A stretch of DNA of 64,000 nt from the human T2T-CHM13v2.0 reference genome, Homo sapiens, in the NCBI RefSeq assembly GCF_009914755.1, contig NC_060930.1; one strand, written 5' to 3'. This document shows, in pieces, positions 2,540-35,603 of the stretch. Numbering within the stretch: the stretch's first letter is position 1; every line of letters starts with the position of its first letter. The notes below the pieces were generated by a model that made no database searches, was not told the origin of the DNA, and saw only the letters and a program-made list of their open reading frames with translations. The position numbers and the translations under genes were made by a program.

Positions 2540-2735
2540 CTGCAGAAAGAAACCCAGGTCAGAGCTCTGGAGAGATGCATGACACACAATTTACCTAACT
2601 AAAAACCCTGCACATGAACACCTGAAACTAAAAGGTTTTTTTTTAAGGAAACCAAATAATGACAAAAAATAAAATGTAATCCACCAATCTTCATAGTTCA
2701 GCTGTGAAAAACACTTGTAAAAACACTAGTAAAAG

Positions 2736-6520: not shown

Positions 6521-7846
6521 TTCTGTTATATATGTCACAGAAGAAGAATAGTTGTTCCAGACACCTTGGAGGTCTGTCTCCAGCTCAGATTAAGTCACCA
6601 GGTGGAACAGATGGCATGGAAAGCTCAGAGTGTGCTGTCCCATCATTCTCAAGCAATACCTGGGTGTCTAGTAGGGATGGAGGCTTAGGTAAGGCCCTGA
6701 AGAGCTTTTATCTATTCCAGAACATGGCACTTTCTGAACAGAGTCAACCCTAAAAGACACTCTGGATTCAACATAACTTGTGTCTGAATGAGGATCACTG
6801 CACAGAGGACAGAAGAAAGCAGAGTATTACTTTGGGATTAGCTGAGGCCCTAGGCTCATGCCTCTCTTGTGGATTCCAGAGAACCAGGCTGGACCACATC
6901 AGGCACTATCTCCTGCTCCAAAAAGGCCCAGGGGGTCCTGAACCTGAGCAGGTAGAATGACCTTCCCTTCAATTTCTATCCCCATGCCCTAACACAAGCC
7001 TTAGATGTACCCACTTCAAGCCAGCAAAAGTCCCATTCTCAACCCCAGAGAAAAGGAGCTGGGGCTTGGAGCACTATGACTATATAAGCTTCTTATACCC
7101 CTTGGACAAGGCATCAACCTAGCAAATGTGGTCTGGTGGTGAATGAAATCTGAGCAATCAGGAGCCTCTTTCTTGCAGTTAAAGAATGGGACCAACAGCT
7201 CTAAGAACCTGATGAGCAAAGAGACACTCTGGCTGTCACAGGGTGGGAGCTGGAGGTGGGTGTCAGTGAACACTTGCAGGAGGAGGAGAAACTTTGAAGG
7301 TAGCAGAAGATTTATAAAGCATAGAAGGGGTTAGCATTCCATGCTGGGGAGTACTGGGAGCAGGTGGTGGAGACACACGTACAAAGCATCATCTACAAAC
7401 GTAGATGGCTTAGCTGAGTGGAGAAAGGAGAAGGATTGGTTAGAGCAGGACAATAAATTTCTTTAGCAGAGAGCCTTGAATGCTGTGCAGCCCTGTCACT
7501 GTGCACTGCAGTCAAAGGGAAGTGTTAAGGGCTTCCTGGAGGCCCCTTTGTGGAAGCATGAGGAGCTCAGTGCAGATTCCCCCAGCAGCCACGAGCAGGA
7601 GGAATGAGGTGGGTAGATACTAGAAGCAGGAGGGAGACCTGGTGGATTCCTTTGGAGTGAGAAGGGTTTGGGGCTCCCAAGAAAGGTTGAGGCCCATCTT
7701 CCACAGGCCCAAGCCCCACTTGTCTGTTCTGCTGGCCAGGAGGAGGGAGCAGGCTGGGCTTCCAAGCACAACCTTCAGCAGACACACACACTTGTGGGTT
7801 CAGGAGGGTCAGACCTGGGGAGCCCACACTTACTTTGACTTGGCAG

Positions 7847-7947
7847 ACCTGGCAGTGCCAGCCACTGTTCTGATGTGCCGATTCATCCTGAACAGAGGCC
7901 TGGTGTTCTCGGTCCTGTTTGTCATTCTTTGAAAGTCTGGGCCTTGG
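7847..7947 (+). pseudogene. Orphan TREM3-type transmembrane exon with in-frame TGA
   Basis: ttggcag|AC CTG...TGG|gtgagt; translates (D)LAVPATVLMCRFILNRGLVFSVLFVIL*KSGPW, matching recalled mouse Trem3 VMVIVLTCGFILNKGLVFSVLFVFLCKAGPK and resembling the TREM1 TM at 61404-61509. Confidence 0.8.
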
Positions 7948-10408: not shown

Positions 10409-10862
10409 GGCAGCCACTCACAGTGGCTCACACCTGTAATTCTAGCACTCTGGGAGGCTAAGCTGGGTGGATCTCTTGAGTCCAGGAGTTCAAGACAAGC
10501 CTGGCCAACATGGTGAAACGTTGTCTCTATGAAAAGCAATAATAATAATAATAACCAGGTGCATTGGTGTGTGCCCACACTCCCAGCTACTCAGGAGGCT
10601 GAGGTGGGAGGATCACTTGAGCCCTGGGAGGTCAAGGCTGCAATGAGCCATGATCACACCACTGCACTGCAACCTGGGCGAAAGTGTAAAACTCCATCTC
10701 AAGAAAAGAAAGAGAGAGAGAGAAGAAGAAAAAAGAAAGAAAGAAAGAAAAGAAAAGAAAAAAGAAGGAAGGAAGGAAGGAGAAAGAAAAAGAGAGAGAA
10801 GGAAAGAAGGAAGGAAGGAAGGAAGGGAAGGAACAGAAGGAAAGGAAGGGAAGAAAGAAAGA
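10409..10862 (+). mobile_element. Alu (AluJ-like) whose tail expanded into an (AAAG)n/(GGAA)n purine tract at 10701-10862
   Basis: Dimeric Alu consensus motifs followed by simple repeats. Confidence 0.85.
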
Positions 10863-12424
10863 GGTGGCAATGAATATATAGTGAGTTCACAGTGTCTACC
10901 TGAATACTCTCAGCCAAAACTGAGATCACAATAGTTAAAATTTATAAGTTTTGTTGTTTCTTTTGCTGTCAATGAAAGTCAAATATGACTAAGTGAAAAA
11001 TAAACATATAGTATTTGCTTTGTTATGTCAAATAAACGCTATTTGTAAAAATATAGTATTTGCCTTGTTACACCAAATAAACCCTATTCTGTAGTATAAA
11101 CGTTATAGTAACAAATTTTCATTTACAGCAATCAGTACATCGGACACTATGTGTGACATATCACACTGAAGGCATCAAATGATACAGATGCAGAGAATAA
11201 ATTCCTATTTTCCTCTTCCAGAATTTATCATACTTTTCTTAGAAACTTCAGTGTGTTTAAGAAAATGACTCTTATTACCATCAAGTGTTAGTAGGTGCTT
11301 TACACCTAGCCGTACTAAGATTTCTTAAAACTTTGCTGTTTGTTATGTACACGCTGTTTGTTATGTATCAAGTGATTATTCATATGCTTTGTGTAAATCG
11401 TTTCTATACATGTTAAAACTAATCTTTTACACTTAGAATGCTTTCAGATTCACAGAAGAGTTGTGTAGGTATTGCATACTTCCCTGATGTGCTATGTTCA
11501 ATGTCTTCTATTATTAATATAGTCCAATAGTATGCTACATTTCTCACAATTAATGAGTTGATATTGATACATTACTATAATTTTACAAAATTGATGAGTA
11601 GAACTCATATATTTATAATGCGTGGTAGGATAGTTTGATGTGTGTATTAACTGTGAAATTACTAAATCAAGCAATACCACATATACTTAATTGTTTTGTG
11701 GTGAGAACATTTAAAATCTATTTTCTGTCATTTTCAATTGTACAATTCAGAGTTATGAACTGCATTCACCATACTGTGCAATAGATCTCTTGAACTTATT
11801 TTTTCTGTCTAACATATTGTGTTTCTTCAACAATACCTACCCAGTTTGTCCAATTCCCAGCCTCTGGTAATGCCATTCTACTCTGTTTCTGTGGTAGATT
11901 TTATTAATTGAAGTCCTTACTTCATTCAGATTACCCTGGCTTTTACCTCATGTACTTTCTGTGCTCCAGAATCCCACCTAGGAAGCCACATTGCTTTTAG
12001 TCTTCATGTCTGCTTAGGCTCCTCTTATTCATAGCAATTTCTGAGAATTATTTCTTAGTTTTGATGGCCTTGACAGTTTTGAGGAACGCTGCTCAGGTAT
12101 TTTGTAGAATGTCCCTCACGTGGAATTTGTTTGATGTTTTTCTCCTGGGGCCAGCGGCTTTGGGGAAGGAGACTGCACAGCTAATTGCCCTGTCATCACA
12201 TCAAGTCAATGACACATTCTAACAACCTGAGTTATCCCTGTGGGTCTGCACTTTGGTTGCCTGGCTGCCACAGTAAGTGTCAGGTTTCTCCACTGTACAG
12301 TTACTCTTCTCTTCCTTCCCATGCTATCCTCTGGAGGAAAGTCACCTGCACAGCCCATGCTTAAGCCGTGGGAATTTATGCTTCTGCCTTGAGGGCAGAA
12401 TACCTATAAGAATTGTTTGCAATC

Positions 12425-12812
12425 TCTCTCAGTCCCTTCAGGCTGCTATGAGAAGATGCCTTAGACTGGAGACTTTTTAAATAATAGAAATCTCTTTCTC
12501 AAAGTTCTGGAGTCTGGGAAGTCAAAGATCAAGGTGTCAGTGGATGTGGTATCTGCTGAGGGCTGCTCTCTGCTTCCAAGGTGGCGCTTTCTTGCAGTAA
12601 CCTCAGTTGACTGAAGGCATGAACACTGTCCTCATATGGCAGACAGCGCAAATCTGCTTCCTGCAATCTCTGGTATAAGGGCATTAATTGCATTCTTGAG
12701 GGTGACGCCCTCATGACTTAAGATTTTCCCACAAGATCCCACCTCTTAACGCTATCACATGGAAATTAAGTTTGAATATATGAGATGGGGGAACAACATT
12801 CTGAACACAGCA
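12425..12812. mobile_element. MaLR solo LTR (MLT1A/MST-like)
   Basis: Typical motifs ...GTTCTGGAGTCTGGGAAGTCAAAGATCAAGG...GCCCTCATGACTTAA...CCCACCTCTTAAC. Confidence 0.6.
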
Positions 12813-13724
12813 GAATCCTTATGCATGGGATATTTGTCTATTCCCCCCCGCCAGTTCTTTATTCAGTCATTTACTTACATCAGCATGGACTCCTAGAGAT
12901 TTAATATATACATTGGGTAGTAATCCAGTACCACTTGGTTTTGTTGCTAGATAGTTCTCACTTCGGCCATTTTCTGTTTCTGTACATTTTACACATGCGT
13001 TGTTCTTTCATCCACTGATGTATTCATCCAACAAGCACTGATTGAGATGATCCCAAGCTACCATAACTGATCCACTCCTACCTGCCTTCCCCTCCAACTT
13101 TCCCTGACCAGCACTCTCTTTCCTCCCTGCTTTCCTGGCCCCACCATTTCCAGGGAACATCTTGTAATTCCTGGGATTAAAATCTGCCCTCTACAAAATG
13201 TCTCAGGGTCAAAACTCATCATCAACCCACCATGGCTAGACCAGAAGGACTCAGGGGTCTGGTCGTGCCTCCAAGGGCCCTGACCACCTATAGGAAGTGC
13301 ACAGAGAGAAGGAAAGAGGGATGACCCCAGCTTTATTCACCAGCTTTATTCTTGGCCATGCTGAGAGCTGCCCCTAGCAATAGAGGAGCAGTATGACTGG
13401 CTGGAAGGCATAAAGCAGCAGACATGGGGAGAAGTTCAGTGAAAGGCGGCAGAGCAACGCAGCAGGGCTGAGGTGCCCAGGCCCAGAGACAGACCCTGTA
13501 GCTGGTGGCCCCTTTCAAGGCCTGGCTGCCCCTCCTCCCCTGGTCTGCAGAGCCCGCCCTCCCAGGCCGACCATTTCCCCAGCAAGACACTGACTCTCTC
13601 AATTTTACCAGCTGAGAGACACTGGGAACCTGGGGCAGAATCAGACCCAGTGTCTGACTCCTTCTCCTGAGAGGGCTCCCTTTTTTCTCCTCTCCTCCGC
13701 TGTCAGAAACAGATTTGGGCTGGA

Positions 13725-13787
13725 ATGGCCTGGGGTGGGGTCCACACCTGCTGCTTCCACCTGTGCTGCTGCTGCTCCTGGCCTCAG
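13725..13787 (+). CDS. TREML4: TREML4 coding exon 1 (MAWGGVHTCCFHLCCCCSWPQ)
   Basis: ATG 13725, donor GT 13788; matches recalled human TREML4 N-terminus. Confidence 0.9.
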
Positions 13788-14010
13788 GTGACATGGAGGG
13801 AAAGAGTGCAGGGGGTGTAAGGAGTGGGATGAAGAATGAGTGGGGCAGGGAGCAGCATGGCTGTGTGACCATAGGACAGAATTTAGGGGCCCTCTTCCAT
13901 GTGTGGGCATCAGAACTAGTTCCCCCTCCCCTTCCCCAGCCTGTGATGGGGGAGGTTGGGTCCCTTCAGAGCTCTGACCTGGGTTTCTTTCTGCCGGTTC
14001 CTGGGTAAAG

Positions 14011-14341
14011 GGTGCTGTGCCTGAAGAACTTCACAAACACCCAGGACAGACCCTCCTCCTGCAATGCCAGTACTCACCCAAGAGAGGGCCCTATCAGCCC
14101 AAATCCTGGTGTCAGCAGACATCTCCAAGTCGGTGTACCTTACTTGTCACCAGCTCCAAGCCCCGGACAGCAGTTCAGAAGTCTCATTACACAATCTGGG
14201 ACAAGCCCAATGCTGGCTTCTTCAACATCACCATGATTCAGCTGACACAGAATGACTCGGGATTCTACTGGTGTGGAATCTACAATGCTTCCGAAAACAT
14301 CATCACTGTTCTTAGAAATATCAGCCTGGTGGTGTCTCCAG
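14011..14341 (+). CDS. TREML4: TREML4 exon 2, IgV domain
   Basis: GAVPEELHKHPGQTLLLQCQYSPKRGPYQPKSWC...DSGFYWCGIY...SLVVSP; acceptor taaag, donor gtgag. Confidence 0.95.
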
Positions 14342-14817
14342 GTGAGCTCTTTTCTTGAGGAAATACCTCTGTGCCACCCCCCAGGGACCTGAAGGAAATG
14401 TCATGCACCCCCTCCCATGCCTCTATCATCCCCCATCCTGCCAGGTCTTCTGCTGTGGTCCAAGGGGAGCAAAGATCCTGTCCCCAAACATGGACTCTCA
14501 CCTCTCCTCCACCCAGTACATCCTGGCCTCAATTGTTGGGAAGGTACCCTCAGAGGTCCCTGGACAGAGACACAGTCTCTCTGTCACTCTGCATCTCTCT
14601 TTGTCTTACACAGGCACACCCACAACTCTTCTTTTCACACACACACTAACACACACACACCAACAACTCTGTCATGCAGATCTTAGGCACAGACCACTCC
14701 TGGCTTAAGACATCCTGAGGGTCTGGCTCTGGGCCCCTACCTCCTCTTATGTATGGGGTAGACCCTACTCTCTTCTGGGCCCCTGGAGAGTCATTGTCTG
14801 CTGTCTTTTCTCTTTAG

Positions 14818-14868
14818 CCCCAACCACGTCTCCTATGTGGACTCTTCCCTGGCTCCCAACAAGCACAG
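14818..14868 (+). CDS. TREML4: TREML4 exon 3 (stalk)
   Basis: tctttag|...|gtagg; (A)PTTSPMWTLPWLPTST. Confidence 0.9.
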
Positions 14869-15358
14869 GTAGGTTGGAGGCCTCGGTGGGGGAAGATTAG
14901 AAGGGTCACCAGGCAGCTTGGGAGCCTCAGATTCAGGGAAGGGGAAACCAGGGAGGCCTGCCTCTGAGGACTGATCTCTTGGGGCCTGGGCTGTTGGGAA
15001 GCTACCTTCAGGGCCCACTGTCTCTTAGGGAGAGAAACATGCACTATCTGATGTGATCAGAAGATCGCCATGTTGTCACGATGATGGGAGGGTGTCCCCA
15101 GAGGGAAGTCCATATGGAACACCTTGCACACGTGTGTCCCAGCCCTCCTGCCCCTGTCCTCCCGCCAGCATGGAGAGGACAGTGCCAGACTTGACTTCAG
15201 CTGGTTATGGAGATCTCAGGCCTCAGTTACCCTTAGCCTGAGGGACCCTTAGGGGCTGCCTCTGGCCCCTCTCCCCTTCCTCTCACACTTTTGGGACCCA
15301 ATCCCATTCTCTATTCTGGTGCCCTGGGCAGCCACTGTCTTCTCTGTGTCCTCTTTAG

Positions 15359-15419
15359 TTCTGATCACTTCTCCAGAGGGGACCTCTGGCCATCCCTCCA
15401 TCAATGGCTCTGAGATCAG
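15359..15419 (+). CDS. TREML4: TREML4 exon 4 (stalk)
   Basis: ctctttag|...|gtagg; (V)LITSPEGTSGHPSINGSEI(R). Confidence 0.9.
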
Positions 15420-16113
15420 GTAGGTCAGAGGTTTTAACACTGGGAGGGAGGTCTTGGGAAGGGAGGGCCTGATTAGCTCCTGAACCTTGGAATCAAGTCC
15501 AGGGCACCCAGGGATCCTTCTCTGGTGGGTTGGGGCATAGGTTACAGCCATGGAGCCCCCAGGCCATGACTCAAAATTTGGTAGTGAGGAAAGGGGAAGA
15601 GGATGCAGGTTGTTAATTGTGGAGGAACCATGGAAAAGACAGTTCAACATGGATTTCTGCAATAAAACAAAATGGAACCCAGAAAATGTGGAAATTGGAG
15701 GCCATGTTGGTGTGTTGAGGGGTGAGTATGAATAGAGTCACTGCAGCCTGGGGCAGATGGTGGCTGGAGATGTCAGCCAGAGAAAGATGAGAGGCATACT
15801 GTTAAATTCTGCTTCTATTCTTGCAGTCATGGGTTTTGAGGCCATGACGGCCTCCCCTTCACTGGAGGAATAGGCTGCAATAGACTAGGTCACAGGTGCT
15901 CTAGGGGACCATGGAGCACAGCAAAAGACATGAGCGATTGATGAAAATAGACAACTAACTGCCAGAGCATTTGCTCCGTAGCCCTCTTCTCCTGCAAACT
16001 CCAGCACGGGTAGATTACAAACAGACTATCTCTCAGGGAGTTTGAAGGTGAAACCCTAACCAGAGAAAAAGTATGGCAGCTAATGGGGGTCCCTGGGGTC
16101 TTGTGCTCTAGGG

Positions 16114-16604
16114 CAGTGGTCCCCAAGCCTGTTAGAAATTGGGCCATAAAGTAGGGAGTGAGTGGTGAGCCACTGAAGTTCATTTGAATTACAGCCTCTT
16201 TCCATAGCTTGCATTACTGCCTGAGCTCTGCCTCCTGTCAAATCAGTGGCAGCATTGGATTCTCATAGTAGCATGAGCCCTGTTGTGAACTGTGCATGCG
16301 AGGGTTCTAGGTTGCACGCTCCTTATGATAATTGAATGGCTAATGATCTGTCACTGTCTCCCATCACTCCCAGATGGGACCACCCAGTTGTAGGAAATCA
16401 AGTTCAGGGCTCCCACAGATTCTACATTATGTTGAGTTGTATAATTATTTCATTATATATTACAACACGATAATAATAGAAATAAAGTGCACAATAAATA
16501 TAATGTGCTTTAATCATCCTGAAACCATCCCCGACTCTCAGGTCCGTGGAAAATTTGTCTTCCACAAAACAGTTCTCAGGCGCCAAAAAGGTTGGGGACT
16601 GTTG
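16114..16604. mobile_element. MER1A-like element, duplicate of 134-624
   Basis: Same TIRs, TSD CTCTAGGG/CTTTAGGG, same flanking context as the left copy in reverse complement. Confidence 0.85.
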
Positions 16605-16989
16605 CTTTAGGGCTTTTTCCTCTCATTTTTAACCCTCAACGGCTAGAGGATTTAGTCTTCCGTTCTTCCCCATTACCAGATCCGTATCTAATATGCCCAG
16701 TGGAATCTGAATTCACAAGCCAAAATACCTAGGCTCTTAGTAGAAGCACTACCTTAAAAGAATGGAAACACACCCAACAATAGAAACCTGTGAAGCAGAA
16801 CTATGGGAACTGCCCATTCCCCAGGAACTCTAGGTACCTATGATCAGTCTGGCTAAAGGGGTGAGGGGAGACGTCAACTATGTGGATCATGAGGACGATC
16901 CATTGGAAAAAAAAGCCAAATGCTGATCATAGTTGTGAAAAATATTATAGACCACAATATATGTGATGAAGGACGGCTGTGGCTGGCCA

Positions 16990-19900
16990 GTGAGCTGTAA
17001 GAAGAGTGAGGAATTCTCATGGAAGGTCCTGGAAAGAACTGGAGATTTAAAAATCAAAGAGAAGTTAGGAGACACGAAGGAGAAGAGTAGATGTACTAAT
17101 GTATGAGTATCAAGAACTCCTGTGGGAGATAAAGGATGAAAGAAAGAAATATTTGGAGAAAGAATCCAGGAAATTTTTTCAAAATTATAGAAGAAAAGAC
17201 CTCAAATTGAAAAGATTCATACATTGCCAAATAGGGGAAAACAGCCAACACACACACAAAAATACCTCTAGACCCATTATGTAAAAGGGAAGAACTTAAA
17301 AAGCAGAGGGAAATGTCTGCACGCTTTCAGATCACCTACAAAGTGATAAGAATTAGACTTCTTAAGAAGGACACTAGAGAAAAGAAGACAATTCAGTAAT
17401 ATTTCTAAAGTACTAAAGAAAAACTTTGTATCCAGTGTTTTGTGTTCAGCCAAATTGTCACTCCAATGTGAAATCATAAAACCTCTGGATTCTCAAGGCC
17501 TCAGAAGGTTTGCCACATGCAAACATCCCCACTGAAAACACTCCTGGAGGAAGGACTCAGCTAGGATGAAAAGTAAACCCTGGAGACGCTGCTAGAAGTG
17601 AGGGAGTAAGTGTGCCCAGCATCTTGGGAAAGTTTGTTTTTATCTTTTTTGATTTATAGGAATGGCAGCTAAGAGCAAAATGAAGAACAAGAGAAAATAC
17701 ATTCATGGTCATTGAAAAATAACATTCTAGACTAGCAGTCCCCAACCTTTATGGCACCAGAGACTGGCTTCGCAGAAGACAATTTTTCCATGGACTTGGA
17801 GGTAGGGGATGGTTTCAGGATGACTCAAGCGCATAACATTTACTGTGCATTCTATTTATTTATTTATATTATTATTACATTTTAATATATAATGAAATAA
17901 TTATACAACTCACCATAATGTAGAGTCTATGGGAGCTCTGAGCTTGTTTTCCTGCAACTAGACAGTCTTATCTGGGGGTGATGGGAGACAGTGGCAGATG
18001 ATCAGGCATTTGATTTTCCTAAGGAACGTGCAATCTAGAACCCTCGCATGCCCCATTCATAATAGGGTTCATGCTACTACGAGAATCTAAAGCCACCACT
18101 GATCTAACAGGAAGCGAAGCTCAGGCAGTGATGGGTGCGATGGGGAGTGTCTGTAAATACTAAGAAGCCTCCCTTGCTCACCAGCCACTCCCCTCCCGCT
18201 GTGCAGCCAGATTCCTAACAGGCCAGGAACTGGTACTGGTCTGTGACTCAGGGGTTGGGGACCCCTGTTCTAGACAATATCAACATGGGGTGAGAAGGAG
18301 AGACCAGAAGCCCATGAAAGAATGGTTGGGTACTTGTCTCATGAGAGGCAATATGTAGATATTGATAAGCTCAATGTAGCAATTGTACTAAATCAATGTG
18401 GATAAGAGTCTTCAGGTTAAGTCAAGAGAATGTATACCCTTTCATCCAGCAAAATAAAACTCTAGCCAAAGGAAAGTCGGAATCGAATTTTTAAAAAATA
18501 AAGCACAATAAATGGAAAAAATGAAATAAAAAGGTAGAATCAAGTCCTAAAATAAATGCAATTCCAATAAATTTAAGTGGATTAAACTCACAAAATAAGG
18601 ACAGGGACACTCTGAGTTTTAAAAAGTGCAATGTTATACTATCTATAAGAGATAAACATACAAAAGATTTTAAAAGGTTAAAAGTTAGAAAAATATATTT
18701 GACTATTAGGAAACAAAATAAACTCTTCTGGCACTCTTAATATGGAACAAAATAGAATTTAAGGTAAAATATTATGTCTATAACATTTGTTTATAAAAAA
18801 GACAAAGATATGTAATATATACTGATGAAAGATGCACTTGAATATGAAAATAGACCCATCATAAACGTATATGTGCTTAAATTTTGGCCATGAAATATAT
18901 CAAGCAACACTATCAGAAATGCAAGGAGAAATAAATTATTAGCCATTGTAGTTGGAGGTTCACATACCTCTCAGAGGATCAAAGACCAATGAGACAAAAC
19001 TAAATAGAGGGGTTTAAGTTTTAAGCCAAATAACTAATAAATTCCAGTATAATACCATCACATATTTATCAATGTTACATATTTTATTAGGTATTTATAA
19101 TAATATAGGATACATATAAACTATGCTTTTAAATATATAATATTTTCAAATATATAAAATATGTAGTTACAGATTGAAAAATGTTCTAAACTATATAAAT
19201 ATAGTTCTAAACTATATAAATATAAAACATGTATATTATGTATGTTTTATAAAATACAGTATTCATAAATATAAATAGTGTATAAGTACACATATATATG
19301 TTTATAACCCTCTACATAATAAAAACAGATAGTATACATTCTTTCAAATACATGAAATGTATTTACAAAAGGACACCTTGTATAAGGACATATAAGAAGC
19401 GTGAAGAAATTCTAAAGAATCAGTACGACACAGAATATATTCTCCAAACCTAACGCAATGACATTAGGAATGCATAAGAGAAATAAAATAGCACTTTTCA
19501 AACTATTTACTAATACATTCATATATGAATGTTTAAGTATGCAATAAAATATATTTTGATAATATGACCACTATATATCAAAAAGTATGAGGCATAAAAT
19601 ATTAGGGAGTAATTATTACCTTTGAATATATTTGTTGGAAAACATGAAAGATTTCAAATTAATGAGCTAAGGAAGCATCTCAAGAAGATGGAACGCGAGC
19701 ATCAGAGCAAACCCAAAGAATCATATAATTGAATGATTGAAAAAGGAGATCAAAGAAATTCATAATTCATTCTTTAAAAGTTTGCTAAGATAGACATGTT
19801 CTTGTCAAGACAAAAGAAGATAATAAATAAACAACAAATCAAAGAAAAAGAAGAAAATAACCACACACTGATTCTACAGAGATTTTAAAATAAATAAATC

Positions 19901-21200
19901 CTGAATAAAATCTTGTTGTTTTAAATCCTAGAAGCACACAATTTCCTAACAATATGAACTGCTAAGATTAACACAAGAAGAAACAGATTTCAATAGATTA
20001 ATAAATAGGAAAACTGAAACAGTTGATAAGACCCATCCTCACAGAAAATTCAAGACTCATGTGGTTTTCAGGTAACCCAATTTTTAAAGAAACATTTACA
20101 TTTCATGATTTATATTTCATACTAGATGTTGCAGAAAATAGAAAAGAAGCAAAAACAGCCCAGGTCATTTGAACAGGTTAGTGTCATCAAAATCTCAGAA
20201 CTAATTAAAGGAGATACAAAAAAATTAAATTATAGGTTCATTTCTCTGATGCACATGGGGTCCATTCCCTAATTACCATTAGCTAACTGAATTCAAGAGT
20301 GCATTGAAAAGAAGACTGATTATAATCGAGGAGAGTCTTATCACAAAACAAAAAGGATTTTTCAACTTTAGAAAATCTATTAATATAAGTAAACCAAATT
20401 CATAAACTACAGGAAAAAAGTCAACTGCTGCACAAAAAGCATTTGGGGACCTTGAGCACATTTATGTTATCTGAAAAAGCTCTTAATAAAATGGAAGTAA
20501 GAACAGATAACTTGGTAAAGATTGTACACCAATGATTACCATAAAGATTACTTATTGGAGGTATAAACTCAAATTAAGGATTTTCATAGCTACCATAAAT
20601 GTCTTCTAAAATATTAGAGATTCTGATCAATGCTTGAAGGAAAGGAAAACAGGTTACATGAAAGAAGATTAGACAAGAAGAGGAAAAACTGTCATGACTT
20701 GCAATTGATGGGATCATCTACCCAGAAAAAGAATGAGAAACAACAAACTATTAGATCTCACAAGAGAGTTTAGCAAGGCTGCCAGATACAAAATCAACTG
20801 ACATACATTACAAATAGATTTCTATGAGGAATAATCATTTAGAAAAATAAGATCGTTTTCATTACAGTCACAAAGTCTATAAAGTTTCTAGAAAGAATTA
20901 ATTTAACCAAGACCTGTTTGGAGAAAAGTATAAAATGCTAAAAAATGACAGGTGATCTGAATAAATAGAAACAATCCATGACTTTGGAAGAGGCAATAAC
21001 ATTGTAAATATGTCAATTTCTCCCAAATTAAAAAGTCTTTAAATGTAATCCCAAACACAACTTCTTTACTTTTGTAAAGAACTTGAAAAATTTACTCTAA
21101 AATTATATGAAAAAGGAAGATACATGAGTAGCTAAGTCAACCATGAAAAAGTGAAAATAAAAAGAGCTCACTGACTTTATCATATATTATGTAATACTGA
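16990..21200 (+). mobile_element. Highly decayed ancient L1 (L1M/L1ME-class) fragments in TREML4 intron 4
   Basis: A-rich strand bias with residual ORF1/ORF2-like motifs; boundaries approximate. Confidence 0.55.
17733..18267. mobile_element. Independent MER1A-like insertion
   Basis: TIRs and perfect 8-bp TSD TTCTAGAC at 17725-17732 and 18268-18275. Confidence 0.85.
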
Positions 21201-21785
21201 GGCAGAAAGTTACCAAGGCCACAAGAGAAAAGCAGATTTGCTGGGACAGGGTAGTCCTAGATCAGAGCTAGGCAGGCCAGGAGTGGGGGCTACACAGAGG
21301 GGATGAGGGAGGACCCCTGGGACCAACAGACAGGAGGTCTAGGTCTGTGCTGTCACCGCTCCTAAGGGTCTGGTCAGGTCCTGTGCAGTCTCTAGGCCTC
21401 ATTTCCTCAGATGTGATATCTTGGCTGGTCTTGAAGATGCACTGGGCTCTGATTCCTAAGGTCGGATGGTCCCATCCGACCTGACCTGGTTAGGGAGAAT
21501 TCCTGCTCCCCCAGCTCTATCCCTCCCCTTCCCTGAACTCCAATCCCTTGTTCTTCCCCTGGCCAGCTTTTTCCTCCGTTCAAGACTTTGAGGTTCCTTC
21601 TGACTAGGTCCCCTCTCAGTCCCAGAGACCTCTGTGGCTCCTGCCCCACACCCCTCTGTCATCGTTCAGGGTGGGCCCTTACGCAAACAGCTCCAGCTAC
21701 AAGGGGCCTGCCTGGCTTAGGGACACCGCAGGAGGTGGTGACATCCTGGCCCAAGTCCATCCTCCTTTCTCCTTCTTCCCTGCAG

Positions 21786-21882
21786 GAAATCAAGAGCCCC
21801 TGCCTGCCTTGGCTCAGGTGGCCCCAGATTCCTGGTCTTGGTGCTATGTGGACTCCTCCTGGCCAAGGGCCTGATGTTGTGA
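21786..21882 (+). CDS. TREML4: TREML4 exon 5 coding part (TM segment with Lys, stop TGA 21880-21882); exon continues to the donor at 21918
   Basis: cctgcag|G AAA TCA...; KSRAPACLGSGGPRFLVLVLCGLLLAKGLML*; exons sum to 603 nt = 200 aa + stop. Confidence 0.9.
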
Positions 21883-22354
21883 GTCCTGTTAGTGCTCCTG
21901 ATCTGCAGGTGCCACAGGTGAGGGGGCCTGGATTTCACCTGGGGGCAATGGAGCTGGGGCCAGATTCTGTTCCTAGAAAGATGGCTAGGAAGAAGCAGCC
22001 AGGTCACAGAGGCAGGAAAAATGACAGCTGGGAACAATTTAAAAGTGTGTTTCCTTGCAATCTCTGCCTTCCTGCAGACACAGACCTTAGAAAGAGACAG
22101 AGGCTTTCTGGGAGTCCCATCCCAGGGCTCTGCCTCTGTCTCTGTCCTGAGAGGAAAAAGACCAGGAGGACAAAGCTGAGAGTGCCTGGGTAGAAGGTTT
22201 AGGAGACAGGAAGGGGCAGGGAAGGAAGCAGGTGACAGGGAGAAGGCGGGGGAGGGGCGGGAAGAGGAGTAACAGGTAACAGGGACAGGGTGAGACAAAG
22301 GATCAGAAAAGCATCACTTCCATTCATGACTTTCCCCCTCTTGCCCCATCTCAG

Positions 22355-24090
22355 GACAGCAGTGACGAGGTTTCTGATTGTCCCAGCACAGCCTTGTCCC
22401 AGGACCCTTGGGTGCATGAGCCACAACATGGATCCTGGATGAATCCCAGTTCTTCCCCTGCCCAGCTATTGGGAGCTGGCCTAAGTATTGCTCCCCACCT
22501 CCTTGTGAGGAAAGGCTAGCGCTAAGCCTATTGGAGAGAACTTTCAGCCCCTGAACTCCCCGGTGGTGACCCCTCACCCCTGCACTGAGCCCCCTTAGAT
22601 CTACTGCCCCTGCCCTGACTTTCGCCATTGGGAAGACCTGGGGTGGGGGTTTCTGCATCCGGGTCAATGCCCAGCTCAGCATCTTCAGCTGTGCCCAGGC
22701 TCCTCTCCAGCACTCTGTCGTTCTCTGAGCCCCACCTCAGCAGGTCTCCAGGATCCCTCACATTTCCCCTGTTTGTTGCCTGTGGTCTGCCCTAGAGTCC
22801 TATGAATTTCCTCTTGTGCTTAATTAAATTCAACCTCTGAACTGAAATGTGTCAGGGGCAGCTGAGCAAGACAGCAGTTGTATCCCCTCACCTTCCTCCC
22901 GTCCCACCCCAGATATCCTAAATGAGAGAGAAATGACTTAAAAATAAATGATAAAATTGAAACTAAGAAAGGCTGTAATCAGCAGACTGGAAGCTGAGGA
23001 AGATCTAGAAGTAAAAGAAAAAATTAGATGCGTTAAAATGACATGAGCAGGCGACTCAGTGGCCCAAAACAGGACCCAGAACATTCATCCGTAAATGGAA
23101 TCTGATAATCTGGGGCCCAAATTCTGTTTACTTAACATGTGAGAAGACTCACAGCCTAAAAGAGAAAATCAAGTTGAACTAACAATAAATGATGGTGGGT
23201 GAAAGATAAATGTTTTAGGGAACAGAAGAGGAGCACATATTTATGAAGCAAGAATAGGTACAGTCATTTTCCAACTAACATCTAGTGAGACTGGGATTCA
23301 CCACTCAGAATGGGGGTCCACCATGAGCAACCGATTTGAGGTACCAGTGCATAGCAGCTGAATGCCAGCCCTGTAAAAGACCACCATAAAGAGAGCTCCA
23401 TGTTCTTTTGCTCTTTTGGGGATGGGACATCAAACAAAAGTCTCTTCGTGTATATCTCAGCTCCTGCCACATGATCATCACCTATCTGTGAGAGGCATCG
23501 CTTTTGCTTTGTTTATTTATTTTTTTAATCCTCATTCCCTATGTCCACTTGCCTTCCTCTCCGAGGCAACTACTCTAATGCATTTGGTATGTAACTTTAA
23601 ATTTGAATGTATTCTTGTAAAACATCAAGTATTTTTTTTTCTGTGACTATGTTTTCACTTACATAAAAGAAATTGTGATAGACCTTTTTCATATGCTTGT
23701 CTTACTCCTTGCTGGGCACATATACACAGCCCACTTCTTTTCAGTGCTTATTCCATTGCGTACATATCCCACAGTGCATCATTCCGAACCCGGGGTGCAT
23801 GTGCTTTTTTGCCTTCACTTTTCTATATCATAAATGATGCTGTGATGAATACCCTCCTTCACGTTCTCTTGTGGAATCATGTGAGACTTCCTTTAGGACT
23901 TATACACAGGTGGCATCAGCTGGGTTGTGGGATCTCAGACATCTAATTAATACTGCCAGCTTGTGTTGCCTGAACCAAGAATCTAGACACTAGCGATTAT
24001 GTGTTTTCTCTGAGTCTATGTGAAGTACACAGCACAACCTATGGAATGGTATTGCCAATTAAAAAAAAAATGGAAGGCAAGAATAAACGT
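22355..24090 (+). other. TREML4: Probable TREML4 terminal 3'UTR exon; end uncertain (ATTAAA ~22823, AATAAA ~22943, ~23183, ~24082)
   Basis: Polypyrimidine tract plus CAG acceptor at 22354; several poly(A) signals downstream. Confidence 0.5.
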
Positions 24091-24819
24091 AGCTGAGTGA
24101 TGCTACATGGGGCTAGATATATGATTATCTCTACTTTTGTGTATGCTTGGAAATTTTCATAATTAAAATGGTACCTAAAATTAAACACTTGTGTCTTGAA
24201 GCCACTGCTATTTGGTTTTCAGTCGTATGTGGCTGAACCCAGTTCTTTCTTATTGAACTTTTACAGCTGCAGTAGGTTGGGAAAAGTTGACTTGTCGTAT
24301 GGAAATATTGAGCTTCACTTAAAGAACATTGATAGTGGGATAAAAATGGACTAAATAAAAATAAGTCTTCCTTAATCAGATGCTAAGAGCTTAGCATTTA
24401 GCTATAACTTTTAAATATTTTATCTTAACATCCTTGGCCTCAAAATTGTCATAATTCCCTTAACCACAATTTTCAAGCAGGTGGTAAATTCTGTGTCATA
24501 AGTTAACATCTAAAAAATGTAGCTTTCTTTAAAATTTTGAACATTTCTTATTGTTTTCTTACCTTCATAGTGTTGCTATGGAAATGTCTGATAATAATCT
24601 GATAGTTATTCATCTCTACTGACCAATTTTATCTCTGGAACATTTTATAATTTTCTTTTTGAAATTTGTATTATAATGGGTGTAATGTGGGGTAATTATC
24701 CATTTTTTCCTTTTTTTTTTTTTTTTTTTTCTTTTTGGGCGAAAGAGGGGGAAAAGAGTCAGGGGGTGGTTGGGAAGCCCGGCGACAAAAGGGGGAAAGA
24801 GGGAGGGAGCAGGAAGCCA

Positions 24820-24928
24820 AAAGCCTATATCACCCGGTATTCCCAGGCGGAATCCCATCCAAGTACTAACCAGGCCGACCCTGCCTGGGGCGTGCCTCGG
24901 GCACTTTCAGGGTGGTATGACCCTAGAG
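24820..24928 (-). pseudogene. 5S rRNA pseudogene (diverged, internal deletion)
   Basis: Minus strand reads CTCTAGGGTCATACCACCCTGAAAGTGCCCGA...GCAGGGTCGGCCTGGTTAGTACTTGGATGGGATTCCGCCTGGGAATACCGGGTGATATAGGCTTT, recognisably 5S rRNA. Confidence 0.92.
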
Positions 24929-25847
24929 GCCAGCAGTGGCGCCTGGCTGCCCCAACAGCCCGCGGTGCTGCAGCGGCAGACCTCCACGAAGAGGTCCCGG
25001 GCTCCCGCGGGGGCGCAGGCGAGCGGAAAAGTGGGAGAAGAGTCAAGAGGTGGTTGGGAAGCCCGGCGGCGACAAAATGAGTAAAGAGGGAGGGAGCAGG
25101 AAGCCAAAGCTTGATTATACATTCTATTTGGAACTCTCTGAACACATTCAGTCTGATGTCTTACATATTTGTTTAATTCGGAAAAATCCTTGGTATTATT
25201 TTTTCAAGAAGTTCTTCTACTCCATTTACTCCTTTTTCTCCTTTGAGGACTTCTTTGAGGAGATATTGACATTTGTTTCTATCCTCCATACCTCTTAATG
25301 TTTCCCTTACACTTTCTATCACTTTATTCCTTCCTAATGCCTTTAGGAAGTGCTCCTTGACTCTTTCCCTTACCTACTCATTCTTCTGCTAGTCATTGCA
25401 TTCAGAGTTTTCTTTCAGCAATGATCATTTTCTTAATCAATATTTCTAATTTTTTCTTCTTCATTATTGCTTGCTTCTGTTTTATGCTTCTAATATTGTT
25501 CCTTATTGCTCTGAGAATATCTGCTATGCTTATTGAAATCATTGTTTTCCCACTGGTTCTGCTTTCTCTGTAATAGATTATTCAATTTATTTCTTTATAA
25601 GAAATTTGTTCTATTTGTTATCTTTTTATAGCATTTGGTAATTTTTCTTGTATTCTCATCTTTTATTCCCTTCCCACCCCTTTTTTTTGAGGATCAGTTA
25701 ATTACTGCAGATTTCACTGCCTAAGGAAGCCCCAGAGGTAAATAGAGTTGATGAGTTTGCCATAAACCATCCAAATATAGAGATACTATATCACAAAGAT
25801 AGCCATTCACATCAGTGAGTTTATTTAACAATGAAAACAGCATATGT

Positions 25848-26216
<369 letters not shown>

Positions 26217-27650
26217 CTATAATCTAAAATAAATTTTAAATAGATCAAAGAATTAAGTGTTAAATGAGAAAATTTTAAAGAACTAAAAGAAATAACTCTA
26301 TAAGGATTCAATTCTAGTAAGGACAGGCATAAGTAACCAATATAAGTGAGACAGAAATCATAGAGGGAAAAGGCTGAGAGATTTTCCAAAATTAAAATTT
26401 TAAAACTAATCTGTGTCCAAAGTAAGTCATCAAGAAAACGAACAAGAAAAGAACAAACTCAAAAGAGTTTTTTGGAATTAAACTAGAAATCAGTAGCAGA
26501 ATAACAAAAGGATATTTGGAAACAAAAAACTACAATAACCAAAATTAAAACCTCACTAGATGGACACCATAGGATAGTAGAAATGAGAGGATATAATTAG
26601 TGAACTAGAAGACAGAACAATAAATTTACCCAGACTGAACAGAGAGAAAACAGACTGAAAATAAATGAACAAAACCTCAGCTATCTGTGGGACATTACTA
26701 GAAGAGCTAACTTTTGCATCACCAGTGTCCCAGAAGCAAAGGAGAAAAAGTGTGGGACTAAAAAATTATTCAAAGAAATGTCTAAGCTCCTCAAATTTGG
26801 TCAAAGACATAAAGTTACTGATCCAAGAAAGATTTTGGGGATGATGGCACCCTTCTCTCTTGATTATGGCATTGGATACAAGTCTCCGGAACTCTCAGAA
26901 CTGTTTATTAAAAAGGGTGAATAGTACTGTATGTAAATTAGACCTTAATTTTCTAATGGGAAAAATAAATGTAAAGACAAAATACACTGCTGTATTAAAT
27001 CAAATGATGGATGTAAAAGTCTAATGTATACATATTTTTAATGACTTTGACCAATGCTTCCAAATTTCTCTTAAAAAAGTTTGAATCCAGTACATACTTC
27101 CTCGATCAGTGAGTGAGTGTTTGATTCCTTCTACCCTCATCAGCACAGTGATCCCAAGGGTCACAGTTTTAATGATCCCTGGCACAGTGCTGGGCACACT
27201 GTATCGGTTTCATAGAATCATGGATTGCAAGCACACGAAGCCCCCGAAGCAACTTACTGTTCTAATGGGGGAAGGGATGAACGAACATACTGTGTGTGCT
27301 GGGGAGGGGAGATGGCCCCTGAACTCAGGGAGCTCAGGAAGTTCTAAGGACTGGGTGGGAAACATTGAAAAAGGAAGGGTGAATAAGGAAAACAAAACAC
27401 ATCTGTGAGCTGAGAGGTCTCAAGTGACAATCGTGTCTCATTCCTATGCCCCCAGTGCCTACCTAGCCCCATGCATAGCAATGAGGTTGTGGGAATGAAC
27501 AAATGAATGAATGAATGAGTGAGTGAATGAGTTGAGAGACTATAAAAGCTTAGGGTCAGCAGAGATAGACTTCTTTGCTTGGAGCTTGGGGGTTCAAGGT
27601 CAGTTTAAGATTGTGGCCATGCAAGCCTGAGGACTTTTTGCTCTGAGACC

Positions 27651-28071
27651 TGTTAAAATTAATGAAAATGGAGACCAGGCCTGAAGAGTCCCTGAGCAGA
27701 CAAAACCAGTTAGGCCTCATAAGTAACCTCAACTTTGCTTGATTTGCAAACATCAGTGAAACTTCACTTGAGCTATTTCTTGTAAATGTGTGTATTAAGG
27801 AAGAACAGAACTTAAGCTCAACCAATCAGAAGCCAACAAACTTATGTAGGTAACTAGGGTCTTTCCAACAGGATAGGCCAAATAAGGGAACTTTATAACT
27901 GTAACTAATTAAATATTTTCTTCAGTTTACTTGTCCTGTAGGAGTCTTCCCCTTGCATTCCCCCAGTGGAGCTCCTCAACCTCTTCTGTTTGGAGCTGCC
28001 TGATTCATGAATTGTTGTTTGCTCAAATAATCTGTTTAAAATTTTATTGTACCTCAGTTTACTTTTTGACA
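27651..28071 (+). mobile_element. ERV1-class solo LTR
   Basis: TG...CA termini, 4-bp near-TSD GACC/GTCC, CCAAT box; subfamily not assigned. Confidence 0.6.
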
Positions 28072-28553
28072 GTCCCATCTAAGGAGTAGAAACATGGCAC
28101 TGGTGAGTAGGGGGAGCATACATAACCACGGGCATCCAGCTGGGTCCCCACACACTGAAGGAGGAGATGACACAGATACTGGACATCAGAAATCAATGCT
28201 TCTGATTCTAGGCCTTGGGGTAAGTGAAGGATGTGGTCTTGGGCCAAGTGCTGGGTCATTTCCACTGGAGATGGAAGCAGCACAGGCGAGACAGGGTTGA
28301 GCAGGGGGAAGTTGAAGGGGCTTGCCTGAATGCTGACGGAGGCTGGAGGCAGGGGAGGAAGGGGCTCTTGAGATGAGGTGGGTGAGGGAAAGCACTGTGG
28401 TGGCTTTAGGAAGCCTGCACGAGGAGCTAGGAGTCTAGAGGGAGCTGGTGATGAGTAGAGACAACAGGAGGAGAGGCAGGGAGAGGGACAGAGGAGACAC
28501 ATGGATAGGGAAAAGGAGAGGCGGCTGGAGGGTGTGTGAGACTGTGTGCATGG

Positions 28554-28625
28554 GCGTGTGTGTGTGTGTGTGTGTGTGTATGAGAGAGAAAGCAAGACTA
28601 TGTGTGTGAGTGTGAGTGTATGTGC
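28554..28625. repeat. (TG)n microsatellite
   Basis: Directly visible. Confidence 0.9.
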
Positions 28626-28859
28626 ACTCACACCCATGTGTGAGAGTACAGGAACCCCTCCCACAACCCAAACTTTATGGGAAACCAAACAGATTTCAAG
28701 TAAGCCTGTAAGAGGTTATTTACAAGAGGGAACACAAGTGACTGTTCTGAGCAGATAGAAGCCTGGGAGAGAAAGAGAGGCAGGAACAGAAAGAATCCAT
28801 CTGCAATAAATGAATGAATTAGAGTTTATAAGAATTTCTTTGTGAATGTGTGTATGTAA

Positions 28860-32372
<3,513 letters not shown>

Positions 32373-32862
32373 AAGAAACTGGAGTTCAAGATTCCCACCG
32401 ATTCCCACCTCATTCTGAGAGCCCGCACCCCTGGGACTCTGAGCCCAGAAGATTCCAGGAAAGTCTATACCTGACGTTCCAGAAGCCTCACCTTCCTGGA
32501 TCCTAGGGATCAGTTTCTGGGGCGGGTTGGGGATGACGGGAAGCCCTCTGACTGTGAGCCCTCCCTGGGCTGGGGGTCCAGACTGGGTAGAGCAGCCACA
32601 CCTGCCTGAATTTCCGAGGAAAGGGGCAGAAACAGCTGCCAGTGCTGCTCTCGCGATAGGCTTGATGAACCCCTGCAGTCGGTTGGGGATGGTGGGTCCC
32701 ATACTGCCTAACTTCCCTAATTGGGTAGCTTCACTTTTAGAACCCCAGGTCCTTCCCTGGCAGGCCCAGGTGGCACGTCCTGTGTGGGGTGGGCCCTCAC
32801 CCTGGATCCCCCGGGTGCCCTGGCCCCTTGCTGGGCCTGTGACTGCCCAGCTGGATGGAGCC

Positions 32863-32917
32863 ATGGCTGCTGCGTTCCTGCTGCTGCTGCTGCTGTGGCC
32901 ACAGGGCCGCATCTCAG
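32863..32917 (+). pseudogene. TREML5P: TREML5P leader exon (TREML2-like); splice donor mutated GT>GG
   Basis: MAAAFLLLLLLWPQGRIS(G) vs recalled TREML2 MAPAFLLLLLLWPQGCVSG; followed by GGAGGG rather than GTGAG. Confidence 0.85.
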
Positions 32918-34628
32918 GGAGGGGAGAAGGGGCTGCCTTGTGGAGGAGGGAGTGGGTACACAAGCAGGAGCTCTAGATCTTTATCAAAAACCACCCTTCT
33001 TGCTTTTCTGGCCCAATTGTCTTGTTTAGTTTTTTGTGGGTTCAGTGAGGAAGAGGTTGGGGCTGACTTCGTAGCTCTTTACCAGAGACCACTGGGCATG
33101 GTGGGGGTTGGCAAAACTCACTCCCTACTGCCTGTGAAAGGGGTGGGAGGTGTAGGCACACATGAACACAGTGCCCTGGAGACCCATCCCAAAGTCACCC
33201 AACTCTGCACCTCCCAGGGTCAGAGAGGTTCCTCCCTCTGCCACAGCAAAAAAGGGTCTCTCCTGTGCTAAGAAATTCTGGGCTCATCCACCATGCAATG
33301 GAGTTGGATCATTCTGCTTAGTTTACAAAGAACAGAGTGATGCTCAGAGAGGGTGCTGCCTCACGCAGAGCCTCAGCTCTAGTGGCTGCTGGCAACTGGA
33401 CAGATGTCCTGGGTTCTGGGCCCTTGACTATCACAGCTCTGGGTTCCACTGGAGGATCTGGGAGCCCCCAGCGTGTGGGAAAATACAGCATGCATTGAGC
33501 ACGCACTGTGTGAAAAGCACTGACCTGGGGCAGAATTCTCACAGCAACCTGTGAGGGATGTGGTGCTATTCTCACTTGACTGATGCAAAGACAGAGATTT
33601 TAGGTGCCCCGATCACACCGTTAAGTGGTAGAAACAAGGTTTTGACCCGTGTTTATTTTGATCCAAAATGTGTGCTCTCTATTCTGTACTATGGGGGAGA
33701 GTCTTTTTATGTGTGGTTTTGTGGGAGACTCTGGGGTGAAATTATCAGAAGAGTCAGCTGAGCTTAGGGCAGGCAGAGGGGTGGAGGGAGCCCACGGCAG
33801 CTTTCTCCCTCTCTCTGTCCCCTGAGTCACCTTGCACACCCCAGTTCTGCTCTCTCTCTACCAGACTGTGGATTATGAAGGCTTGGACCACATCTTACTC
33901 CTCAGCATAGAGAGAAAGATATTGCAGGTGGAAAGTGAATAATTGTAGAATCCTGTGGTTCATACTCCATTGGGAGTTTGTTTACATGTACATTTGGACA
34001 GGCTTGATCTATGGGTTTTATGTAACTAGAATACTTTAAAACTAAACACCAGCTAGAATGAACTAAGGTAGGTTATTATTTAAAGAGGACTACAGTGAAC
34101 CTATTTGTGAAATAAATAACTATTAATCATTTTTTCAAACACTGGATTTTCTTATCTACCTAATTAGTTGGGCACTGAAATTTCAGAACTTAATGACCTG
34201 TGTTTGTGTCTCTGCATCTTTCTCACTGGGTTTTTCCCACAAGAATGTCACTCTCCCATCAGACTAGAAAATACCATGAGGAAAGGGGCTGTGTCTGATG
34301 GAGCTCCAAGTGTAAGTGCTGCATTTCCTCCATTAGACTGGGGGCTCACTGTGGGATATACCTGCCTCCTCCATCAGACTGAAAGCTCCCTGAGAGGGGG
34401 ACCTCTGTCTGCCCCCTAATACTGGGAGCTAGCTGTTTTCAGGGCCCATTTACCTCCCTTCAGACTGGGGCAAGCTCCCTGAGGGTGGGGCTGTATTTCC
34501 CCCTCAATCTGTGGGTTCCATGACAGCAGGACAATATCCACCCCGCCCTTCACCATGATCTTCACCTTTCATGATGTCTTCTTCCTCTCCTCTTGCCAGA
34601 CCTTATTCAACAAGTCTTGTCTCCACAG

Positions 34629-34949
34629 GCCCCTCTGCTGGGAGCGCATACACAAAAGTGAGGCTCCTTGAAAGGGGGACTCTGTCTGTGCAGTGCTTCT
34701 GTAAGGGCTACAAAAACCGCATGGAGGGCAAGGTTTGGTGCAAAATCAGGAAGAAGAAGTGTGAGCCTGGTTTCACCCAAGTCTGGGTGAAAGGGCCCCG
34801 CTACTTGCTGCAGGACGATGCCCAGGCCAAGGTGGTCAACATCACCATGGTGGCCCTCAAGCTCCAGGACTCAGGCCGATACTGGTGCATGCGCAACACC
34901 TCTGGGATCCTGTACCCCTTGATGGGCTTCCAGCTGGATGTGTCTCCAG
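34629..34949 (+). pseudogene. TREML5P: TREML5P IgV exon (TREML2 duplicate), open frame, intact splice sites
   Basis: (G)PSAGSAYTKVRLLERGTLSVQCFCKGYKNRMEGKVWCKIRKKKCEPG...DSGRYWCMRNTSGILYPLMGFQLDVSP; ccacag|...|gtgag. Confidence 0.9.
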
Positions 34950-35603
34950 GTGAGCGGGCTGCAGGGGCACTGGGACGGGTGGAGGGAGTCCTCCCTGCCC
35001 CACACTCCACTAACATCAGAGATAATAAGGATAATAATCCATCAATGGTCATGTTGCACTGTAGTGTTTTCAAAGTGCCTTTATGGCACTATTCGTGGCA
35101 CTATTGTCACCATTTTACAGATGAAGATAATGAGACCTGAAAACCCAGTGTGACTCTGAGCTTGTCCGGGGTCCCAGAGCTAGCAGGTGGCTGAGATAAA
35201 GTTCAAACTTGGCACTGTCTGTGCTGTGTTTTATTCACTCATTGCTTCAACATAATTCACTGAGCCCGTATTATGTGGCAGGCACTATTCTAGGCTCTAA
35301 GGAGACAGTAGTGAGCAAAAACAGACACAATCTTGCTCTATAATAATTGCAAATAACAAATTTTTGTAAGAAAAAACAACACTTGTAAACAGGAAAGTTA
35401 ACTCAGTAATGCGGGAGCTGTGGAAATACTGAGGATCAGAAAACACCTCCCTGAGCAGATGACACCAAGCAGACCCCTGAATGGTGAGCATTCTCCAGCT
35501 CTGTTGAAATCTGGGTGCTTTGAAGGGCACTTTGTGGCAAGGGCTGCATGTGCAAAGGTCCTGAGGTCAGAAGGTGCTTGGCTTGTACAAGAAAGACTTA
35601 TTT

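What the first reader, a model, noticed from the sequence alone, without database searches (positions are those of the whole stretch)
13715..14011. TREML4 ORF survives by two compensating lesions that destroy the signal peptide
Seen: the ATG frame gives the odd Cys-rich MAWGGVHTCCFHLCCCCSWPQ, while an overlapping frame gives a textbook leader PHLLLPPVLLLLLASG, implying a frameshift in TGGGGTGGGG (13731-13740). The paralog TREML3P keeps the canonical acceptor ctgcAG|GTTCCTGG, but TREML4 has ctgcCG (13995-13996), forcing use of taaAG 14 nt downstream, which exactly restores frame. The reconstructed ancestor MAWG.PHLLLPPVLLLLLASGSWVKGAVPEE resembles recalled mouse Trem4-type leaders (MAWEPTYLLSPVLLLLLASGSW). 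Inference: the human protein may not enter the ER efficiently, and any allele with A at 13995 would splice out of frame and be degraded by NMD, a potential on/off expression switch. An upstream TTG at 13715 is in the Leu-rich frame but is out of frame with the current acceptor.
Basis: partly seen in the sequence, partly recalled or inferred. Interest (0 to 1): 0.8.

Follow-up and report, generated by a model that had tools for sequence, protein, structure and literature searches.

The report
Human TREML4 carries three old lesions
The human immune-receptor gene TREML4 reads its leader exon in a shifted frame, has lost the usual splice acceptor so that the next one restores the frame, and stops in the middle of its membrane anchor, so it likely makes a protein that cannot reach the cell surface the way the mouse receptor does.

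Summary
Observation confirmed base for base. All 5 intact paralogs in the cluster have a Leu-rich leader exon ending in phase 1. TREML4's exon 1 ends in phase 0 and reads a (CTG)n run as Cys, a net -1 shift. The ancestral acceptor (AG in TREML3P) is CG here. The next AG, 14 nt on and already present in TREML3P, restores the frame. I found a third lesion: a stop in the middle of the membrane helix, shared with TREML3P and so probably older than the acceptor loss. The consequence (no surface expression or DAP12 binding) is already stated in print, though without data in that paper. My searches did not find the nucleotide-level explanation. 'Compensation' needs no selection: a 1-in-3 coincidence suffices. 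The NMD on/off switch is not supported. The stop would lie 72 nt from the ATG, where NMD is usually escaped, and the known eQTLs are described as regulatory or 5'UTR variants. Against plain decay, the Ig exon looks constrained after the duplication (12 vs 2 amino-acid changes); the membrane exon does not (0 vs 4). No primate orthologs were seen, so frameshift order and timing are open.

The parts
13725..13787 (+). Coding part of exon 1 in the ATG frame: 21 codons, 6 Cys, ends in phase 0; first 9 nt identical to NCR2
13727..13787 (+). Overlapping Leu-rich frame, the inferred ancestral signal peptide; would end in phase 1 like all paralogs
13734..13744 (+). Bracket for the net -1 (mod 3) indel, between the NCR2-like first three codons and the resumed Leu frame (inferred)
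   Evidence: sequence; NCR2 alignment
13715..13717 (+). TTG in the Leu frame; opens a 28-codon overlapping ORF with the current acceptor
13788..13789 (+). Intron 1 donor GT
   Evidence: annotation
13817..13822 (+). Possible cryptic donor (GTAAGG); with TTG 13715 and acceptor 14011 it would be in frame and keep the Leu leader (use untested)
13974..13978 (+). Only branch-point-like motif found in 13930-14008
13995..13996 (+). Dead ancestral acceptor, CG instead of AG
13997..14010 (+). 14 nt of former exon now intronic; identical in TREML3P; holds TAA 14006-14008 (the stop if 13997 were used with the ATG frame) and the used AG at 14009-14010
14011..14341 (+). Ig V-type exon, open; 53 of 113 residues identical to NCR2 (counted from 13999)
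21786..21917 (+). Membrane exon with the Lys; the frame continues hydrophobic beyond the stop and joins exon 6 in frame
21880..21882 (+). Third lesion: TGA four codons after the membrane Lys, aligned to a Ser codon (TCA) of NCR2, shared with TREML3P; 35 nt before the last junction
21879..21884 (+). GTGAGT overlapping the stop: a possible alternative donor that would skip the stop in frame (use untested)
2540..2541 (-). Intact AG acceptor in TREML3P
13961..35591 (+). Right arm of an inverted duplication (partner 2575 to -18043) holding TREML4 exons 2-6 and TREML5P; starts inside TREML4 intron 1

Best explanation
Human TREML4 is a damaged receptor gene whose leader exon is read in a shifted frame, whose old acceptor is dead and whose membrane helix is cut by a stop; the frame was likely restored by coincidence rather than selection, and the protein is likely not a working surface receptor. 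Shown: the three lesions, the frame arithmetic, and that the downstream AG and the membrane stop are present in the duplicate. Inferred order: membrane stop first, then the inverted duplication, then the acceptor A-to-C on the TREML4 copy; the frameshift is undated. Inferred mechanism: the spliceosome scans from the unchanged branch point to the first AG, now 14009-14010. The mRNA has one long ORF whose stop is 35 nt before the last junction, so it is predicted to escape NMD and stays annotated as coding. With only 3 of 10 aliphatic or aromatic residues in its best leader stretch, the chain is predicted to be a poor SRP substrate, leaving the Ig domain in the cytosol without its disulfide or glycans, probably degraded. 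Disease associations would then reflect the eQTL haplotype, the RNA or neighbouring TREM genes more than a DAP12-coupled receptor.
For: 5 of 5 paralogs phase 1 and Leu-rich; best 8-residue hydropathy 2.4-3.7 in paralogs, 3.0 in the Leu frame, 2.0 in the ATG frame. Downstream AG and the 14 nt identical in TREML3P. Of the first 4 downstream AGs, 2 are in frame, and the first has a 1-in-3 prior. Either lesion alone ends the frame within a few codons, so an intermediate with little or no product is implied. Membrane stop shared with TREML3P. Unpolarised Ig-exon differences from TREML3P are 20 of 252 nonsynonymous and 4 of 72 synonymous sites, against 9.5 of 244.5 and 4.5 of 70.5 for intact TREML2 vs TREML5P (difference not significant, p=0.09). 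In the membrane exon all 4 polarisable amino-acid changes fall on the TREML4 branch. [quoted passage not shown]
Against: Polarised by NCR2, the Ig exon has 12 nonsynonymous changes on the TREML3P branch and 2 on TREML4 (p=0.013; 7 unpolarised; 10 vs 1, p=0.012, after dropping gap-side and stop sites). So the Ig domain was kept under constraint for much of the time after the duplication, despite the shared stop. The ORF is still open over 200 codons. The published statement comes with no data in the text passages or the one supplement searched. SignalP could not be run, and Cys is moderately hydrophobic.
Confidence: 0.58

Rival explanations
1. True compensation: the frameshift came first, leaky use of the pre-existing downstream AG kept some in-frame product, and loss of the old AG was selected because the altered protein is useful (cytosolic or tail-anchored Ig domain, Cys cluster possibly lipidated, or a released decoy).
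For: Ig exon constrained on the TREML4 branch while the membrane exon is not (12:2 vs 0:4, Fisher p=0.005); downstream AG pre-existed; a 17-residue hydrophobic C-terminus remains; strongly inducible, with expression differing between populations.
Against: Pooled exons give 12 vs 6, p=0.24. NCR2 is a distant outgroup (53 of 113 identical). Constraint may predate the lesions. A selection scan puts TREML4 at baseline for recent sweeps. A cytosolic IgV would not be expected to fold (general knowledge).
Confidence: 0.2
2. A working receptor is still made by minor routes: the Cys-rich leader acts as a weak signal, or the TTG start plus donor 13817 restores the Leu leader, and the GTGAGT donor at 21879 skips the membrane stop.
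For: Both alternative routes are exactly in frame; use of the 21879 donor would explain constraint on the Ig exon despite a stop shared since the duplication.
Against: RefSeq lists one transcript only; the annotated donors are stronger matches; a strong-context ATG follows the TTG by 10 nt; published statement of no surface expression.
Confidence: 0.14
3. One reading: a segregating A/C variant at 13995 turns expression off or on through NMD.
For: An A at 13995 would give a 24-residue product from the ATG; TREML4 expression varies up to 300-fold by haplotype.
Against: The stop would be start-proximal; the eQTL SNPs are described as regulatory or 5'UTR; no variant data were available to show that the allele exists.
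Confidence: 0.03
4. The Cys-rich frame and the 14011 acceptor are ancestral for TREML4 in mammals.
For: No orthologs were examined here, so it is not formally excluded.
Against: 5 of 5 paralogs, the TREML3P AG and the junction-to-Cys distance all favour the Leu frame and 13997.
Confidence: 0.03

Closest known systems
NCR2 (NKp44), closest paralog examined
   Same: Same first 9 coding nt, short intron 1, Ig exon 53 of 113 identical, membrane exon in phase 2 with Lys; grouped with TREML4 in PMC13262535 (passage).
   Different: NCR2 has a phase-1 Leu-rich leader, an intact AG and a Ser codon where TREML4 has the stop.
Mouse Treml4 (DAP12-coupled surface receptor)
   Same: Named ortholog; induced in inflammatory macrophages in both species (PMC7133789).
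   Different: Per PMC7133789 (passage) only 39% identical, and human TREML4 lacks surface expression and DAP12 binding. The mouse sequence was not examined here.
Frame rescue by a cryptic splice acceptor after a frameshift (general class; recalled, not searched)
   Same: Loss of an AG moves splicing to the next AG, and the net change is a multiple of three.
   Different: Here the rescued ORF has the leader exon itself in the wrong frame, so coding status is saved but the targeting signal is not.
Decaying or unitary pseudogenes of immune receptor clusters (TREML3P, TREML5P here)
   Same: Several independent disablements; sits in a birth-and-death cluster.
   Different: Still has one long ORF predicted to escape NMD, is annotated as protein-coding, and the Ig exon shows signs of past constraint.

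Membership tests
TREM family (by descent) | Single V-type Ig exon with the two Cys and the Trp, in the 6p21.1 cluster | tested here: met
   alignment with 5 paralogs and TREML3P; tblastn
Activating DAP12-coupled TREM receptor | Leader exon ending in phase 1 | tested here: not met
   63 nt, phase 0, against 5 of 5 paralogs in phase 1
Activating DAP12-coupled TREM receptor | Cleavable signal peptide with a hydrophobic core | tested here: inconclusive
   hydropathy proxy below all 5 paralogs; SignalP not available
Activating DAP12-coupled TREM receptor | Lys in the membrane segment | tested here: met
   aligned to the NCR2 Lys
Activating DAP12-coupled TREM receptor | Complete membrane helix and cytoplasmic tail | tested here: not met
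   stop at 21880-21882 in the annotated transcript
Activating DAP12-coupled TREM receptor | Surface expression and DAP12 association | not testable with these tools
   stated to be absent in PMC7133789, no data seen
Unitary pseudogene | Disabling lesions relative to intact relatives | tested here: met
   three lesions
Unitary pseudogene | No intact ORF | tested here: not met
   200-codon ORF
Unitary pseudogene | Loss of purifying selection | tested here: inconclusive
   Ig exon 12:2, membrane exon 0:4, pooled p=0.24; no orthologs examined

The most novel reading that the evidence does not exclude
A primate surface receptor was rewired in steps into a non-surface protein: it first lost half of its membrane helix, then swapped its signal peptide for a Cys-rich leader through a frameshift fixed by a selected splice-site loss, while selection kept the Ig domain. 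Human TREML4 would then be an intracellular or decoy Ig protein with a role unlike mouse Treml4, and mouse sepsis, lupus and atherosclerosis results would not transfer.
Probability: 0.15. Interest if true: 0.75.

Novelty: new member of a known kind. Interest (0 to 1): 0.42.

Why it matters
TREML4 is discussed as a DAP12-coupled receptor and drug target on the basis of mouse work; a 2026 review still lists TLT-4 as signalling through DAP12 (PMC13255405, passages). The three lesions give a base-level reason for the one-sentence published remark that the human protein does not reach the surface, and they define cheap tests: leader swaps, junction counts and a primate alignment. It is also a caution for annotation: an open frame can hide a leader exon read in the wrong frame.

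Tried and rejected
Ortholog comparison: not done, so nothing here rests on primate or mouse sequence. Gene conversion near the acceptor: 9 of 240 differences in 13961-14200 against 9.5% overall looked low, but 157 of 500 shuffles gave a window that low somewhere in the arm, so rejected. Local protein alignment of both frames to paralog leaders discriminated weakly (Leu frame higher in 4 of 5, tie in 1). The first TREML2/TREML5P control was unaligned and is discarded; it was redone aligned. A genome search with exon-1 DNA found only the locus itself, so no second copy exists to date the frameshift. A Pfam scan of the two pseudogene exons failed on stop codons and was not repeated. Literature: 9 searches naming TREML4 (mostly listings only; one search listed no paper with TREML4) gave no description of the frameshift, acceptor change or membrane stop. 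PMC4085627, PMC4406861 and PMC9904274 were not held, and the 2003 cluster paper was not looked up; any of these may describe the lesions. Supplements of the bioRxiv paper were not seen.

Full report
Observation. Every coordinate in the finding holds. The ATG at 13725 opens a 21-codon leader with 6 Cys, and coding exon 1 is 63 nt. The overlapping frame is Leu-rich. Positions 13995-13996 read CG where TREML3P reads AG, no other AG lies between 13972 and 14008, and the annotated exon starts 14 nt later after AG 14009-14010. A net -1 plus -14 gives -15, which is in frame. TTG 13715 gives a 28-codon ORF with the present acceptor and the whole ORF with 13997.

Which state is ancestral. I fetched the five intact paralogs from the same genome. 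All 5 of 5 (TREML1, TREML2, TREM1, TREM2, NCR2) have a leader exon ending in phase 1, with 7-8 of 10 Leu/Ile/Val/Phe/Met in the best stretch and 22-24 codons from the junction to the first Ig Cys. TREML4's Leu frame has 8 of 10 and 23 codons from 13997; its ATG frame has 3 of 10 and 19 codons from 14011. I located these paralog junctions myself from annotated start sites, motifs and tblastn hits, not from an exon table. NCR2, the nearest paralog (53 of 113 Ig residues), begins with the same 9 nt as TREML4, so the ATG is old and the shift lies just after it, about 13734-13744. Shifted frames of the NCR2 and TREML2 leaders also give Cys runs. No orthologs were examined.

The duplicate. TREML3P is part of an inverted duplication: window 13961-35591 pairs with 2575 to -18043, with 1488 differences in 15722 aligned sites (9.5%). 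By recalled primate divergence rates that is roughly 35-45 million years (own knowledge, not tested). The arm begins inside intron 1, so TREML3P has no exon 1: it polarises the acceptor change but cannot date the frameshift, and no other exon-1 copy was found. The 14 lost bases and the downstream AG are identical in TREML3P, so the rescue site pre-existed.

A third lesion. The annotated stop (21880-21882) falls four codons after the membrane Lys and aligns to a Ser codon in NCR2. It is followed in frame by more hydrophobic codons and a tail in exon 6. TREML3P has the same stop, so it predates the duplication unless gene conversion copied it. It lies 35 nt before the last junction, inside the 50-nt NMD-escape zone (rule in PMC12668785, passages). 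The stop overlaps GTGAGT at 21879, a possible donor that would skip it in frame; its use is untested.

Selection. Unpolarised, the Ig exon differs from TREML3P at 20 of 252 nonsynonymous and 4 of 72 synonymous sites. The control pair from the same duplication, intact TREML2 vs TREML5P, has 9.5 of 244.5 and 4.5 of 70.5 (p=0.09 for the nonsynonymous rate). Polarised with NCR2, 12 nonsynonymous changes fall on TREML3P, 2 on TREML4 and 7 are unassigned; 3 synonymous changes fall on TREML4 (p=0.013; 10 vs 1 after dropping 3 doubtful sites). The membrane exon is the reverse: 4 on TREML4, 0 on TREML3P, 3 unassigned. Pooled, 12 vs 6 is not significant; the contrast between exons is (p=0.005). The Ig domain was therefore probably constrained for much of the time after the duplication. 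These data cannot say whether that constraint ended when the leader broke.

Mechanism. Shown: the lesions and the frame. Inferred: scanning from the branch-point-like motif at 13974 to the first AG; a long ORF that escapes NMD; a leader too weak for efficient SRP capture; a truncated anchor. Either leader lesion alone ends the frame within a few codons. The first downstream AG has a 1-in-3 chance of being in frame, so coincidence in a weakened gene is enough. I put 0.58 on decay with chance rescue, 0.20 on selected rewiring, 0.14 on a working receptor made by minor splice or start routes, and 0.03 each on the switch and on the Cys frame being ancestral.

The proposed switch. With A at 13995 the stop would be 72 nt from the ATG. 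Stops within 150 nt of the start showed allelic imbalance in 31.8% of cases against 74.5% for NMD-triggering ones (PMC12668785, passages). The known eQTLs rs2803495 and rs2803496 are described as regulatory-region and 5'UTR variants (PMC9633690, passage). No variant data could be consulted.

What is known. [quoted passage not shown] PMC13255405 (passages) still lists TLT-4 as DAP12-coupled. A selection-scan preprint (10.64898/2026.05.21.726777, passages) puts TREML4 at baseline. PMC5075285 (one table passage) lists it as higher in African monocytes. Nine searches gave no account of the frameshift, acceptor loss or membrane stop, but three key papers were not held.

Verdict. A real and neat feature: a TREM-family gene by descent that fails the structural tests of an activating receptor. 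Its main consequence is in print. The base-level cause and the third lesion appear undescribed in what I could read. The most striking claims, selected compensation and an NMD switch, are unproven and unlikely respectively. Interest 0.42.

Noticed in passing
window 2576-13960: A unique central block holding TREML4 exon 1 and its promoter lies between the two inverted arms. TREML2 is complete on the left arm and truncated on the right, so the left arm looks original and TREML4 exons 2-6 sit on the derived copy, with exon 1 re-pointed by the inversion.
   Followed up: partly
window 32703-32973: TREML5P also has an unannotated copy of TREML2 exon 1 with an intact Leu-rich leader, a 21-nt insertion in the 5'UTR, and the donor GT destroyed by a 1-nt deletion.
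   Followed up: partly
window 36332-36462: Unannotated remnant 70% identical to the 3' end of the TREML4 Ig exon, followed by a donor; possibly an older dead TREM gene.
   Followed up: no
window 15229-15421: This stretch, including TREML4 exon 4, has no counterpart in TREML3P.
   Followed up: partly
window 14041-14043: The matching codon in TREML3P is a TAA stop, and TREML3P has a 3-nt gap near 14246-14248.
   Followed up: yes
window 21879-21884: The membrane stop overlaps a consensus donor hexamer in both TREML4 and TREML3P; splicing there would join exon 6 in frame and give a tail.
   Followed up: partly
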